From contig OZ024755.1 of the NCBI GenBank assembly GCA_964016885.1, positions 4,154,001 through 4,218,000 on the forward strand: 64,000 nt of DNA, written 5' to 3'. How positions within the stretch are numbered: the stretch's first letter is position 1; every line of letters starts with the position of its first letter. The position numbers and the translations under genes are program-made. Under the pieces are notes generated by a model. That model saw only the letters and a list, made by a program, of their open reading frames with translations, was not told where the DNA came from and made no database searches. This document shows, one piece after another, positions 336-47,129 of the stretch. This DNA comes from Eledone cirrhosa (Eukaryota).

Positions 336-491
336 AAAGCCATGGAAAATAGAGTGCTCTGTGCATAGAACAGAGCTATTTAATTAGAAAGTGAAAAACA
401 CAAAATATAGCTATTATTATTATTGTCTGTGATCCAGAAACCTTTGGTAATGGAGTAGTTATATTTTGTGTCGTTCACTTTCTAATTAAAT
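336..491. mobile_element. Fold-back (TA)n-flanked element with the 3' half of a hammerhead motif
   Basis: Arms 378-413 and 456-491 are reverse complements. The centre has GAAA-CCTTTGG-TA (437-449). It shares the GCTCTG...ATAGAGCACTCT segment with the elements at 20610-20868 and 27897-28213. Confidence 0.55.
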
Positions 492-564
492 ATATATATA
501 TATATATATATATATATATATATATATATATATATATATATATATATATATATATATATATATA

Positions 565-1338
565 ATCATTTGTTTGTTAAAAAATCAAATAAATTAACTC
601 AAAAGTTAAACACACAGAGAAATAATAGGGTTGTTATCGAAAGAGCCAGAAGATTGACAAGTCGACCCTAAATATGACTAATAGCTCTAGGAAAGCCATG
701 AATGACACCACATCTCTTTTTAACTTTGATTTTGAAAGTAGTTTTATAATTATTAATTTTCACTATACTTTTGTAGCTGTCTCGGTGGCCTAGTTGGAGG
801 ACTCATAGACGGTGGTGATCCTGGTCTGCAGTTCGATCCTGGTCGGGAATAAGGTTCCTAGTAAACCTTTTCACTTTTTTTTCTATGGCATATAAAATAA
901 AAACTGAAAAAGATTACATGTACCAGGATTGAACCCACGACCAGGATCTCCAGTACCTACCGCTGGGCCACTGAGACAGATATGATAATCTACTGAAAAT
1001 TCATATTTATAAACCTACTTTCAAAATTTTCGAAACAAAATCATGTGGTGTCGTTCATGTCTTTCTTAATGTTATTGCTCCTACTTAAGGTCGACTTCTA
1101 AATCATTTGGGTGTTCCATAAACTACATCCTCGTTTTTGTTTCTCATCTATCTAGACTATATTTTAACCTGTAATCCATGTTTCATTTCTGTTGCACATC
1201 ATTCCCCCCCCCCCCCCCCCCACCCTCCCTCTATCTCTATCTCTCTGTGATATTTGGATCTACTATGATTTAGGCTTACCTTATTCATATATACATGTTT
1301 TTGCGAGTCAGTTAGATTCAAACTTACAATGATTAGCA
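565..1338. mobile_element. ~770-bp palindromic repeat containing two convergent tRNA-like heads (copy 1)
   Basis: Imperfect inverted repeat over about 650-1110. A box TGGCCTAGTTGG (786) and B box GTTCGATCC (831) on +; mirrored A/B boxes on - (960-970, 926-935). T-runs lie in the centre. An inverted second copy is at 18748-19511. Confidence 0.7.
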
Positions 1339-1402
1339 TTTTATATATATATATATATATATATATAAATATATATATATATATATATATATATAAATTT
1401 AT

Positions 1403-1512
1403 TGTTATACTTTGGGAGGGTCATGTTGCCAATGACCCTCCCAAAGTATAACAATATCGGTTTCAACACACGATTTCAGATAAAGAATCTTGCTAAACAA
1501 ATTTAGAAACGA
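1403..1512. repeat. Short (TA)n-associated fold-back repeat (TACTTTGGGAGGGTCATGTTGCCAAT family)
   Basis: Hairpin TTGTTATACTTTGGGAGGGTCA...TGACCCTCCCAAAGTATAACAA. Related copies at about 21700-21768, 22905-22935, 28330-28580 and 41362-41590. Confidence 0.7.
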
Positions 1513-42877: not shown

Positions 42878-43560
42878 CACACACTAAACAACAACCCTTA
42901 AATATGTTCCTCCACTCTACCACACACACACACACACTAAACAACAACGACCCTTAAATGTTACTCCACTCTGCCACACACTAAACAACGACCCTTAAAT
43001 ATGTTACTCCACTCTGCCACACACTAAACAACGACCCTTAAATATGTTATTCCACTCTGCCACACACACTAAACAACGACCCTTAAATATGTTATTCCAC
43101 TCTGCCACACACTAAACAACGACCCTTAAATATGTTATTCCACTCTGCCACACACTAAACAACGACCCTTAAATATGTCAAAATGGCAAAAATCACATTG
43201 AGTAAACATTTACCCCGTATCCTTTACTAAACAACAACGACCCTTAAATGTTACTCCACTCTACCACACACACACACTAAACGACCCTTAAATATGTTAC
43301 TCCACTCTGCCACACACTAAACAACGACCCTTAAATATGTTACTCCACTCTGCCACACACTAAACAACGACCCTTAAATATGTTATTCCACTCTGCCACA
43401 CACACTAAACAACGACCCTTAAATATGTTACTCCACTCTGCCACACACTAAACAACGACCCTTAAATATGTTATTCCACTCTGCCACACACTAAACAACG
43501 ACCCTTAAATATGTCAAAATGGCAAAAATCACATTGAGTAAACATTTACCCCGTATCCTT
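42878..43560. repeat. ~41-bp minisatellite with higher-order duplication
   Basis: Unit CACACTAAACAACGACCCTTAAATATGTTAYTCCACTCTGC. The block ending CCCCGTATCCTTT occurs twice (about 43224 and 43561). Confidence 0.9.
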
Positions 43561-44622
43561 TTCAAATCTAAATATATAATTACATTTCGTTGGTTAATCC
43601 TATTTCGTTTTCTTTGAAATACTTTGGTGCACTCTTAAGTTAATAAACTAACCACCAACCCGTTGTTTAGACTACATTCAAAACAAAATACTACATGGAT
43701 TTCGAATCACTGGAATTCTGTCTGTGCTATTTGGTTCAGATTAGAAAGAAATATTTTGTTTTATATTCTATATCAGATTGTCTTTACCCACTTTGATATT
43801 TGTCGGTGTCGGGTTTACCATTATGCTTAGGTGTGTTTAAACACAGCGCTCCATTGGCCGGTGGCGGGGGGTGGCATCTTCCTGCCGCCCCCCCTTATTT
43901 GTGGAAGGTGTGTTTAAACACGGCTCCATTGGTCGGTGGCGGGGGTGGAATTTTCCTTGCCCCCCCCCCCCTCCCCAATTATTTGTGAATTTTTCAAATG
44001 TTTGGAGCCTAATAACTTAATCCAGGGTCTCATTTGCCCTAAATCCAGCACTGGTGTTTGTGTGAAGTATTCTAGTTGGTTTATAAAATATAGAATATCT
44101 GGTTAGTATTTTGACTGTCAATAACAAAAACACCGAGAAACTTAAATACAAGAAGTCCTCGGCTTTTGGGGACTTAAACACCTCCAAAAAATATGGAAAC
44201 TTGTTGAATGATCTTGGGTTTTACTAAACTGATTTCCTATTGACTCTAAATATGTTAATATGATCATGTTTTTAATTTCTTTCTTAGTCCCGGATTGGTG
44301 ATAAAAAAGCATGAGCTAATAATAATTGTTTCTACAATTGGCACAAGGCCAGCAATTATTCCAGTGTATTACTGGTACTTTATTTTATCATGAGCTAATA
44401 ATAATACACATGTATTGTGTGTGTGTGTGTGTATGTATATATATATATATATATATATATATATATTTATTAAAATAACAGATTACAGTTTAAGCAAAGA
44501 ATCGCTGCTTTCACCCTTAACGGGATCTTCTCAAACTAAACGAGCCCTCTTTGGATTTTAGTCTTCAAATTTATTATTATTACTATATATATATATATAT
44601 ATATATATATATTATATATATC

Positions 44623-44665
44623 GGGGTTTCCTGATGATTTCTCCTGAATGAAACAGTTCTAGTCC
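44623..44665 (+). ncRNA. Type I minimal hammerhead (weak stem I)
   Basis: GGGTTTC-CTGATGA-TTTC(TCCT)GAAT-GAAA-CAG-TT-CTAGTCC. Confidence 0.55.
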
Positions 44666-47129
44666 TATATAAGCCATTTTTATAAATATATATATATATA
44701 TATATATATATATATATATTAGAAAGTGAGGTTTTTTTTACAAAATGAAAAAAAAAACGGTGTCCTACACGAGTGAAAGTAAAGGAAAAAAGATGAAATC
44801 GAAAATGCAACTGGTCTTTTTTTTTTTTTACATATATTTATTTGGTTCCTTTACTGGTTTCGCAGTTTCCTTATATATATATATATATATATATATATAT
44901 AAAATGAAAATCCGAAGGCAAGGTAAAATTTCCAATCATGACACACGTTTCCTTATATATATATATATATATATATATATATATATATATATATATATAT
45001 ATATCTGCATAAATATATATTTTTTTTGTATATATATATATATATATATATATATATATATATATATATATCAAAATGAAAATCCGAAGGCAAGGTAAAA
45101 TTTCCAATCATTTTAATCACGACACATGTTTCCTTATATATATATCAGATAGGGTGTGGTAAAAACCAGCTAGACAATACTTGAAGTGCCTCGAGCTCCC
45201 CCCCCCCCCCCTCCAATCCAACACTGGTGGCGGGACCATACCATACCCTATGTAAACTAAACAGTGAGTATTTCTAATGCGGGGCTCCATATACCACCAC
45301 CACCACCATCAACGCCGCCATGAATTAAGACACGACTAGAATAGCTTTTTGTTATTTATTTATTATTGTACTTCAGTTTAACTCACTACTCAACAATTTC
45401 TAGGACAACACCTGTGTTTAGCCTGATTTAAGTCGTAAATATTCATTGTAGCTGTCAGTCAGTAGCTAGTAGTCCAACACACACTCTTCTTATTGATTGT
45501 AGGTATACTGGGATTGGTTACCTCAAATATTAAACAGGTTTCATGGTAGTTGCTTATCGTTTTGAACTGGTTGAGTCATAACTATGTTTGTTATATTTAG
45601 GACTACATTTCTGTTGAAATACTTGAACCTTCACCTTCCTTATTTCCTAGAGGGTGGGAAAAAACTATTAACATCTTCTTAACCATAATAAACTTTGTGA
45701 TCACAAGTCTGGCCCAAACTTATATTAACATTTTAACCACAATAAACTTTGATCACAAGTTTACTTGGTCAAAACTAATAATATTTTAACCACAATAAAC
45801 GTTGATCATAAGTTTACTTGATCAAAATTAATATTATCAACATGTAGCAGGTTGTACTGGGTTACATGGGCTCAAATCAATCTTGAAGTTGTTTGACCCT
45901 TTATCATTTAAACTGACCATATACAGCCAGAATTCGGTGACGTCTTTCTGTTCAAACTGGCTGTAACCAGTCACTCATACTGAAGTTGAGGTATTGTTTT
46001 CAAAATAAACAATATCAATCTCATAGTTTCGATGTGAGATATTATGTGAGGTAAAGCCTTTACCATGAAAATATAATAGTATATATAGAGTAATGTAAAT
46101 GATAAAGGGGTAAAGGTTTACTGTTCTAATTTTTATCACTAATAAATATATTTTACTGGAGATTGGTTTATAATCTTTGTGTAGTCTTGTGCCATCCTTG
46201 AAATTACTGATTTATGATCAGTCTTCCAACTATGACCATTCCATTGTTATATTGTGGATTGTTTGTCCTTGATTCCTTCTTGGCACCGGAGCAGTCCTAT
46301 GAAGATCAAGGTTGTGCAGCTGGTGCTTGTGTGTCTACCTACCTCACTGGAATCTACTCATCTCTGCAGGACACTTCCCTTCATCCTCCTCCCTCCAAGT
46401 ATATCTACGACTACATTATCCAATGTCTGTTTTTTTAAGGCAGATTTGGCAGCTATTTTTGGCATGTCAAATAACCATATATAGGCTTCCTTGTATGGAC
46501 AGTCCTGTAAATCCTTCAGGAATTGTTGGGGTGCCATATTGATACAGTGTTTCTAGGGCATTTTTTTAAATTTCACGGAACCTAACTTCTTTCCAGGTCT
46601 GAATACAGCAGATTTCTTCCAAACAAGGAAAGAGAAAGGGAGAGAATGGAAGTGAGAAAGAGATATGGAGGAAGAATCGACCCTGGTTGACCTTGGTTGG
46701 GATTTGAACTTAGAGAACCAGAATGAATACCACAAAGTATTCTGACATTCCAACAACTCTGCCAGTTCACTGTTTTATAGGCTTCCTTAATGGGTCCATG
46801 TTAAAAATAGCGTGTGATGTGTCATCAAAGCTGCTCCGTCTTCTGTCTACTTATTTACATTGGTTAGAATTCTGTTCCATTAAACCTGACAGGTGTTTCT
46901 TAACACAAATAGTATTCCCTCAAAGACCAGACTAACGCATCTATGACATCAAAATACAGTTGGGTTGATCAGTCGATCTGTGTTACTGGGACAGAAATAT
47001 TGTAACAGCAGCACCAAACTAATTACTGTATATACTTAAATATAAACTATAATAAATATAAGCCAAGCACACTATTTTGTGTCTGAGAAATGGGCAAAAC
47101 TCCAAACATTATTTATACATAAATATAAA

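What the first reader, a model, noticed from the sequence alone, without database searches (positions are those of the whole stretch)
336..44682. About ten different hammerhead-bearing element families packed into (TA)n microsatellites
Seen: CUGANGA...GAAA-(palindrome)-UH motifs with pairable stems at 6049, 6359, 6669, 7158, 7426, 16884, 17383, 21602, 23062, 23919, 25676, 26509, 26747, 28056, 34415, 38932, 41965 and 44623. Half-motifs occur at 437, 7666, 19755, 20743, 37373 and 41882. Primary sequences differ between families, but the stem III palindromes (ACGCGT, ACAATTGT, ATATATAT, ACGATCGT) covary. Most elements are bounded by (TA)n. Inference: a diverse population of microsatellite-targeting Penelope-like or retrozyme elements makes up much of the apparently unique DNA, at roughly one motif per 2 kb.
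Basis: partly seen in the sequence, partly recalled or inferred. Interest (0 to 1): 0.85.

Follow-up and report, generated by a model that had tools for sequence, protein, structure and literature searches.

The report
Penelope ribozyme ends in TA microsatellites
The hammerhead motifs are real and belong to over a dozen repeat families, at least seven of them ends of Penelope-like jumping genes already known to carry such predicted self-cutting RNAs and to land in TA repeats; the one new detail is that one family's copies likely record a capped transcript that begins at the ribozyme's first base.

Summary
Observation largely confirmed. A strict type I hammerhead descriptor gives 8 hits in the window against 0.06 in shuffles, and 40 against 0.3 in a 600-kb genome sample (about 200,000 genome-wide). 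Only 7 of the 18 listed full motifs pass; the rest are damaged copies of families intact elsewhere. (TA)n lies within 200 nt downstream of 27 of 33 sites (null 7). Seven families lie downstream of Penelope-like (PLE) reading frames, mostly Hydra-type. Two (310 bp, and a missed 615-bp array) are ORF-less tandem retrozyme-like repeats. Two fixed 3' ends per family and back-to-back arms match published PLE behaviour, and an octopus Hydra PLE with hammerhead and (TA)n targeting is in print. These families cover about 10% of the window's non-simple DNA, not most of it. New detail: family I copies often start at the first base of stem I, 30 nt below a conserved TATA box, with an extra G (40 of 50 versus 2 of 24 internally), likely a copied cap on uncut RNA. 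Cleavage and expression are untested. The scan reported this pattern before on other DNA of this genome. Verdict: new members of a known kind.

The parts
337..490 (+).
   Evidence: relative in L046
2600..2750 (-). Complete non-circularly permuted (SGC-order) hammerhead-like motif with bridged stem II; core at 2629; not in the finding
   Evidence: 1 hit, 0 in 100 shuffles; 2163 first-look candidates
5936..6874 (-). Family A, left arm: three tandem 310-bp units, intact type I hammerhead in each (cores 6085, 6395, 6705)
6875..7362 (+). Family A, right arm, back to back with the left arm (core 7164); ends in (TA)n
7385..7545 (-). Family B, hammerhead with U4C core, stem I mismatched in this copy
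7603..7816 (.).
11836..15092 (+). Young 615-bp tandem array, 5.3 units, each full unit with a U3-A8 core type I hammerhead (cores 12261, 12876, 13491, 14106, 14721); ends in (TA)n; not in the finding
16870..16935 (-). Family C, old copy, one base lost at the cut site (core 16924)
17220..17286 (-). Family K 3' fragment between TA runs
17300..17520 (.). Family D foldback, short arm left and long arm right, both hammerheads damaged (cores 17367 -, 17389 +)
19586..19897 (.).
20612..20860 (.). Family H2 foldback: complete hammerhead on - (core 20701), half on + (20743)
21540..21765 (+). Family M end, GAAA mutated (core 21606); followed by (TG)n
22465..22560 (+). 3' half of a second permuted-hammerhead family (core 22498); not in the finding
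22905..23140 (-). Family E pseudo-LTR piece (core 23100), weak stem I
23866..24050 (-). Family F end, long stem II loop, stem I damaged (core 24024)
25530..25785 (+). Family G foldback, intact hammerhead (core 25684)
26415..26556 (-). Family D end, hammerhead with 10-bp stem I (core 26544)
26680..26855 (+). Family G variant, weak stem II (core 26755)
27900..28210 (.). Family H1 foldback: intact on + (core 28063), stem II loop deleted on - (27967)
33960..34175 (-). K-related 3' end
   Evidence: 74% over 69 nt
34320..34510 (.). Family I foldback joined at the top of stem I (core 34449 -)
37197..37490 (.).
38757..38990 (.). Two family I copies tail to tail around a TA run; the - copy (core 38966) starts with the extra G after (TA)n
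40220..40377 (+). Two family I 3' fragments
41819..41945 (.).
   Evidence: complete relative in L222
41960..42270 (+). Family J end, truncated inside stem I, long stem II region (core 41969)
44620..44690 (+). Family I, decayed short copy (core 44631)

Best explanation
These are mostly the truncated 3' ends (pseudo-LTRs) of many families of endonuclease-bearing Penelope-like retroelements, plus two ORF-less tandem repeats likely moved by the same enzymes, each carrying a predicted type I hammerhead and inserted into (TA)n. Inferred mechanism: the element protein nicks a TA repeat on both strands and starts reverse transcription at two fixed RNA sites 60-150 nt apart, downstream of the ribozyme; the two cDNAs stop early and are joined back to back, leaving a foldback with one long and one short 3' end. 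The template was usually not cut at the hammerhead. In families I and I2 the RNA likely starts, capped, at the first base of stem I from a TATA promoter 30 nt upstream in the element's own end, so promoter-bearing truncated copies could seed further 140-nt copies. The 310-bp and 615-bp units were likely copied from circular or multimeric RNA. Short palindromic stems III would need two ribozymes to pair for cleavage.
For: Shown: 40 type I hits in 600 kb against 0.3, 40-100 per Mb by bootstrap. Same-strand PLE frames 0.2-1.5 kb upstream of D (L087 3 of 3 copies, L082, L153), G (L067, L082, L088), F (L094), J (L126), M (L089, L142), K (10 of 20), and pLTR-ORF-pLTR for E in L069. CxCx5C linker in K, G, F, J frames and DKT in L063, as Craig 2021 defines for Hydra. 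(TA)5 within 200 nt downstream at 27 of 33 sites, null 7.0 +/- 2.3, max 15 in 2000; control repeats 4 of 16 and 14 of 72. Two 3' ends: D +38/+100, K +20/+93-98, H +39/+103-105, I +23/+92, B +49/+200, F +61/+211. One long and one short end in 17 of 19 two-armed I copies, read by eye from 30 loci. 5' ends within 2 nt of the cut site in 4 of 123. Compensatory pairs in G stem II (12 of 29 sequences) and I stem I (12 cells among 129 sequences), core substitution 2-3% in A, G, H, I. Extra G: 40 of 50 and 22 of 33, I2 55 of first 100 of 161, internal controls 2 of 24 and 0 of 7; TATAAA at -30 +/- 1 in 13 of 13 copies that reach it. Published: two RT start sites, both strands extended, uncut RNA the main substrate (PMC11167929).
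Against: No frame was linked to A, B, C, H, I, L or the 615-bp family; a candidate link for I failed. Pfam finds nothing in 4 of 4 PLE frames, so PLE identity rests on motifs compared by eye with a published alignment. Rfam lists no hammerhead. Compensatory changes mark a few subfamily events, not many independent ones; core substitution is 9-11% in B and K. The extra G also occurs at a K site inside the stem II loop (31 of 98), which has no TATAAA at -30. I copies abutting TA a few bases inside the core are as common (62) as those at the stem I top (50). 44 of 123 aligned 3' ends did not abut TA, partly because the G and M references were cut short. Cleavage was not tested.
Confidence: 0.9

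Rival explanations
1. All families are ORF-less retrozyme or SINE-like RNAs that cycle through circles, and nearby PLE frames are neighbours by chance.
For: A and the 615-bp family are ORF-less tandem arrays at 97-100% identity; A folds as a circle at z -4.5; seven families have no linked frame; one apparent link was chance; PLE frames are common (15 of 60 sample loci).
Against: Links recur at family-specific distances on the same strand: D about 200-300 nt in 5 of 5, K about 1.1 kb in most of 10 of 20; E flanks a frame on both sides.
Confidence: 0.06
2. For the extra G only: it comes from a short master copy that happens to begin with G, or from untemplated addition by the reverse transcriptase at any true RNA end, not from a cap.
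For: K shows it at an internal hot spot without a TATA box at -30; short and long I copies were not separated by diagnostic variants.
Against: Two diverged families (I, I2) both have C in long copies, G in short ones and TATAAA exactly 30 nt upstream; internal sites lack it; an extra 5' G is read as a copied cap for L1 and SVA (PMC4859970).
Confidence: 0.3
3. The foldbacks are miniature inverted-repeat DNA transposons with TA target sites, and the hammerhead motifs are incidental.
For: Many inserts look like inverted repeats flanked by TA.
Against: Arms are unequal, the centre varies from copy to copy, single-armed and tandem copies are common, and long copies lead into RT plus GIY-YIG-type frames.
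Confidence: 0.02
4. The motifs are chance matches in AT-rich, low-complexity DNA.
For: No Rfam hit; weak folding z-scores of single motifs.
Against: More than 100-fold excess over shuffles; conserved cores, variable N7 and compensatory stems in homology-selected copies.
Confidence: 0.01

Closest known systems
Hydra clade of C-terminal EN+ Penelope-like elements, including Hydra-1_Obim of Octopus bimaculoides (Craig et al. 2021, PMC8557442; passages, section 11 and supplement rows read)
   Same: DKT motif, CxCx5C linker, C-terminal GIY-YIG-type domain, type I hammerhead near the 3' end, (TA)n insertion, inverted truncated partner, one-sided tail.
   Different: Many more families than the one octopus Hydra family listed there; tails of 60-150 nt rather than 30-40; U3-A8 and U4C cores; no tree was built.
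Minimal hammerheads of metazoan PLEs (Cervera and de la Pena 2014, PMC4209133; parts 1-2 of 4 read)
   Same: Many diverse families per genome, mostly single motifs from truncated PLEs, pairs on opposite strands, palindromic helix III, extra base after position 9, a U3-A8 core variant.
   Different: The parts read name no cephalopod; the estimate here (about 200,000) exceeds the 2,000-9,000 per genome quoted there, but the descriptors differ.
Metazoan non-LTR retrozymes (Cervera and de la Pena 2020, PMC7229834, parts 2-3 of 6; Li, Clavereau and Pollet 2026, 10.64898/2026.07.22.740005, parts 1-2 of 5 and passages)
   Same: ORF-less tandem units of a few hundred bases with one type I hammerhead per unit (family A, 615-bp family); PLE origin proposed.
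   Different: Applies to two families only; RNA circles and cleavage were shown for coral, mussel and axolotl, not here; back-to-back arms in (TA)n are not described in the parts read.
PAc Poseidon element of Anolis (Frangieh et al. 2024, PMC11167929; abstract and whole main-text section read)
   Same: Two RT start sites give the tail; both strands nicked and extended; AT-rich targets; uncut hammerhead RNA is the main substrate.
   Different: No start-site mapping or cap signature there; the ribozyme overlaps the ORF start in PAc.
Type-SGC hammerheads (Eckert et al. 2023, PMC10085705; passages read)
   Same: Block order S-G-C of the motifs at 2629 and 22498.
   Different: Here stem II is bridged by a third strand and the motif sits in animal repeats; side observation, cleavage untested.

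Membership tests
Type I hammerhead ribozyme | Core CUGANGA, GAAA, UH with stems I-III in type I order | tested here: met
   8 window hits against 0.06; 40 against 0.3 in the sample; 11 of 18 listed copies are damaged
Type I hammerhead ribozyme | Stem covariation and core conservation among homologues | tested here: met
   (G, I, B, M); few independent events; J row dropped because of (TA)n false hits
Type I hammerhead ribozyme | Match to curated Rfam hammerhead models | tested here: not met
   No hammerhead among 114 matches at E<=1
Type I hammerhead ribozyme | Site-specific self-cleavage | not testable with these tools
   Needs in vitro assay
EN+ Penelope-like element | RT plus C-terminal GIY-YIG-type frame upstream of the hammerhead-bearing end | tested here: met
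   D, E, F, G, J, K, M, by motifs; Pfam gave no hit in 4 of 4; not shown for A, B, C, H, I, L, 615-bp family
EN+ Penelope-like element | Pseudo-LTRs, partial tandems, inverted truncated partner, one-sided tail | tested here: met
   L069, L193 and L205
Hydra clade | DKT motif and CxCx5C linker | tested here: met
   DKT in L063; CxCx5C in K, G, F, J frames; not detected for D by the pattern; E and M have Cx2-5CxxC and are not Hydra
Hydra clade | Placement in the clade by RT phylogeny | not tested
   No reference sequences on hand as files
Hydra clade | (TA)n insertion preference | tested here: met
Non-LTR retrozyme | ORF-less tandem units, one type I hammerhead each | tested here: met
   Family A and 615-bp family only
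Non-LTR retrozyme | Expressed circular RNA | tested here: inconclusive
   Run kinds unknown

The most novel reading that the evidence does not exclude
In families I and I2 the element's own 3' end holds a TATA promoter that fires at the first base of the hammerhead, so truncated copies become sources of a capped, uncut, about 140-nt ribozyme-headed RNA that the Penelope enzyme re-inserts by the thousand as foldbacks. The genome would thus record both the start site and the fact that the ribozyme was not cut before copying, in a genome with one of the densest and most varied hammerhead populations known (canonical, U3-A8, U4C and permuted forms).
Probability: 0.55. Interest if true: 0.55.

Novelty: new member of a known kind. 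Interest (0 to 1): 0.42.

Why it matters
The kind is known, so the population itself is not a surprise. It matters as a resource: roughly 200,000 intact-looking hammerheads in many families give a large natural set for testing what the ribozyme does in Penelope-like elements, which the papers read call unclear. The cap-like G and TATA spacing, if confirmed, would map a PLE start site onto the ribozyme, support in vivo the in vitro result that uncut RNA is copied, and explain why so many copies fold back at the same point.

Tried and rejected
Rfam scan: no hammerhead, mostly microsatellite noise. My block descriptor first had a bug that lost palindromic stems, fixed. A bulged stem I register for family I was dropped for a better one. 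The idea that family I starts only at stem I was dropped: long copies carry about 235 nt more. A PLE frame upstream of I in L166 proved to be a separate neighbour; the weak L182 match was not followed. L103 and L090 did not link H to a frame. The query covered the wrong side of family B, so B's upstream frame was not tested. No spike of 5' ends at the cut site. Controls were uninformative because the templated base was G; (0 G in the first 100 of 113) is only partly informative because most hits are templated; one search gave one match for family C. The automatic arm classification was noisy and replaced by reading. The J row and the short J hits were dropped as (TA)n artefacts. Splicing as the source of the fixed 5' end does not fit the junction bases (inference). 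Sequencing runs: no RNA holder listed; three runs of unknown kind each hold one 340-nt contig, one turn of the 310-nt unit plus 30, which tandem DNA or a circle would both give. No frame was found upstream of the permuted families, so the Naiad link of earlier notes is untested; three motif look-ups in the Craig supplement found nothing.
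Full report
Setting. The window is G000:C15:4154001-4218000 in a 3.0-Gb assembly. I infer an octopod-type genome from its size, repeat content and the likeness of its PLE frames to Hydra-1_Obim; the name comes from no call.

Observation. A descriptor of my own for all six hammerhead block orders found 8 type I hits in the window, against 0.06 in 100 shuffles that keep microsatellites in place. Seven are among the 18 listed motifs; the eighth (20701 -) is the partner of a listed half. 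I checked the other sites by homology. B (7426) has 1369 first-look candidates and a U4C core in most copies. C (16884) is conserved only over the ribozyme. J (41965) has a 9-bp stem I in long copies. M (21602) and E (23062) are sister families with 6-bp stems II. F (23919) passes in L094. I (34415, 38932, 44623) has 4768 candidates and a 6-bp stem I. K (19755, 37373) lacks its core here, but 20 of 20 long copies carry a U3-A8 core. The listed sites thus fall into about 13 lineages. Rfam lists no hammerhead and single motifs fold weakly. Many stems III are perfect palindromes with no loop; for 6-nt cases my descriptor forces this, for the 8-nt cases it does not.

Genome-wide. I fetched 60 evenly spaced 10-kb stretches (not proportional to contig length, and only the first part of the four largest contigs). 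They hold 40 type I hits in 23 of 60 loci against 0.3 in shuffles, or 40-100 per Mb, about 200,000 in the genome; seven hits come from one array. Variant cores add 10 U3-A8 hits (shuffles 0-1), 2 U4C and 4 permuted. The window, at 8 in 64 kb, is within about twice the mean. After collapsing arrays, 27 of 33 sites have (TA)5 within 200 nt downstream, against 7.0 +/- 2.3 for random positions in the same loci; two control repeats give 4 of 16 and 14 of 72. The families cover 5.9 of 58.7 kb of non-simple window sequence, plus the 3.3-kb array found later.

What they are. Fifteen of the 60 loci hold PLE-like frames. Same-strand frames end 0.2-1.5 kb upstream of D, G, F, J, M and K, and E flanks a 3.4-kb frame region on both sides in L069. 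Frames for K, G, F and J have the CxCx5C linker, and the J-related frame L063 has DKT, features Craig et al. give for the Hydra clade. Their supplement lists Hydra-1_Obim with (TA)n preference and a type I hammerhead. E and M frames have a Cx2-5CxxC linker and belong to another clade, unresolved. Pfam gave no hit for four frames. A, B, C, H, I, L stay unlinked. Family A forms dispersed back-to-back tandem arrays at 97-100% identity and folds well as a circle (z -4.5).

Mechanism. In unbiased copies (window, two neighbours, sample) six families show two fixed 3' ends 60-150 nt apart, and 79 of 123 ends abut TA. Of 19 two-armed I copies among 30 loci, 17 have one long and one short end, by eye. 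Only 4 of 123 5' ends lie within 2 nt of the cut site, while 16 of 20 I copies start at -40 to -45, the 5' edge of the ribozyme. This matches the in vitro behaviour of the Anolis PLE: two start sites, both strands extended, uncut RNA as substrate. That two cDNAs are joined in the middle is my inference.

Start site of family I. Long copies have C before stem I (39 exact upstream matches in the first 100 of 414). Copies whose 5' end abuts TA have G there in 40 of 50 and, in the other TA phase, 22 of 33 (counted by hand). The sister family I2 has G 55, C 21, A 23, T 1 in the first 100 of 161. Internal sites give 2 of 24 and 0 of 7 (Fisher p 3e-9 for I). TATAAA lies at -30 +/- 1 in all 13 held copies that reach that far, of 16 examined, one of them I2. 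An extra 5' G is read as a copied cap for L1 and SVA. Against a tidy story: a K hot spot inside the stem II loop also shows G in 31 of 98 (0 of 50 held copies have G there) without a TATA box at -30, and I copies that start a few bases inside the core are as frequent. I put the cap reading at about 0.6-0.7. A start site within the pseudo-LTR is known for Penelope and Chlamys. I found no paper on a cap signature in PLE insertions, nor on hammerhead density in octopus (the 2026 O. vulgaris repeat annotation, PMC13282606, passages read, has no mention of ribozymes). The library is partial, and the supplements of the 2026 preprint were closed.

Permuted motifs. Prompted by earlier notes, I wrote a descriptor for S-G-C order with a bridged stem II. 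It finds a complete motif at 2629 (-), none in 100 shuffles, and 4 in the sample against 0.1; stems differ in sequence between three families while staying paired. The window's 22465-22560 is a half copy. This was not part of the finding and repeats what other sessions reported.

Earlier scan notes. The same window-wide pattern, the 310-bp arrays and the permuted motif were reported on other DNA of this genome. None of the notes shown mentions the extra G.

Verdict. Real, abundant and well explained by known PLE biology; new members of a known kind, with one modest new mechanistic clue. Interest 0.42.

Noticed in passing
window 11836-15092 (+): Young 615-bp tandem array with a U3-A8 core hammerhead in each unit; 1277 first-look candidates, identical arrays on other contigs.
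   Followed up: partly
window 2600-2750 (-) and 22465-22560 (+); L181 2562 (+): Non-circularly permuted (SGC-order) hammerhead-like motifs with a bridged stem II, three families.
   Followed up: partly
window 32125-33627 (+): 501-aa open frame with Pfam cadherin domains, protocadherin-like single long exon.
   Followed up: no
window 48000-64000: No (TA)6 run and no canonical-core hammerhead hit in 16 kb, against 15-46 runs per 8 kb in the first 48 kb; the two neighbouring 10-kb stretches also have no strict hit.
   Followed up: partly
L097 5271 (-), L108 5809 (+) and 9427 (-), L066 4989 (+): A type III-order (SCG) hammerhead-like family with a stem II loop of about 140 nt, next to a LINE-like frame in L108.
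   Followed up: no
family K, stem II loop (window 19740-19750): 5'-end hot spot with extra G in 31 of 98 TA junctions: possibly a second start site that yields RNA with only half a ribozyme.
   Followed up: partly
family A, window 6070, 6071, 6081: The only common differences in four runs lie at core position N7 and in or beside loop II.
   Followed up: no
window 222-323 (+): Truncated 5S rRNA-like copy ending in (TA)n (Rfam 36.3 bits, below threshold 38), possibly captured by the same machinery.
   Followed up: no
window 28590-29730 (+) and about 29760-30300: Decayed LINE-like reverse transcriptase pieces, judged by eye.
   Followed up: no
window 565-1100 and 18880-19510; 1395-1735 and 1978-2160; 22600-22840; 35640-35760: Further TA-bounded repeats without a hammerhead call; 35640-35760 is very common (16 of 60 sample loci).
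   Followed up: partly
window 9148-9429, 42880-43520, 51500-52700: Minisatellites (17 bp, about 37 bp, about 30 bp).
   Followed up: no
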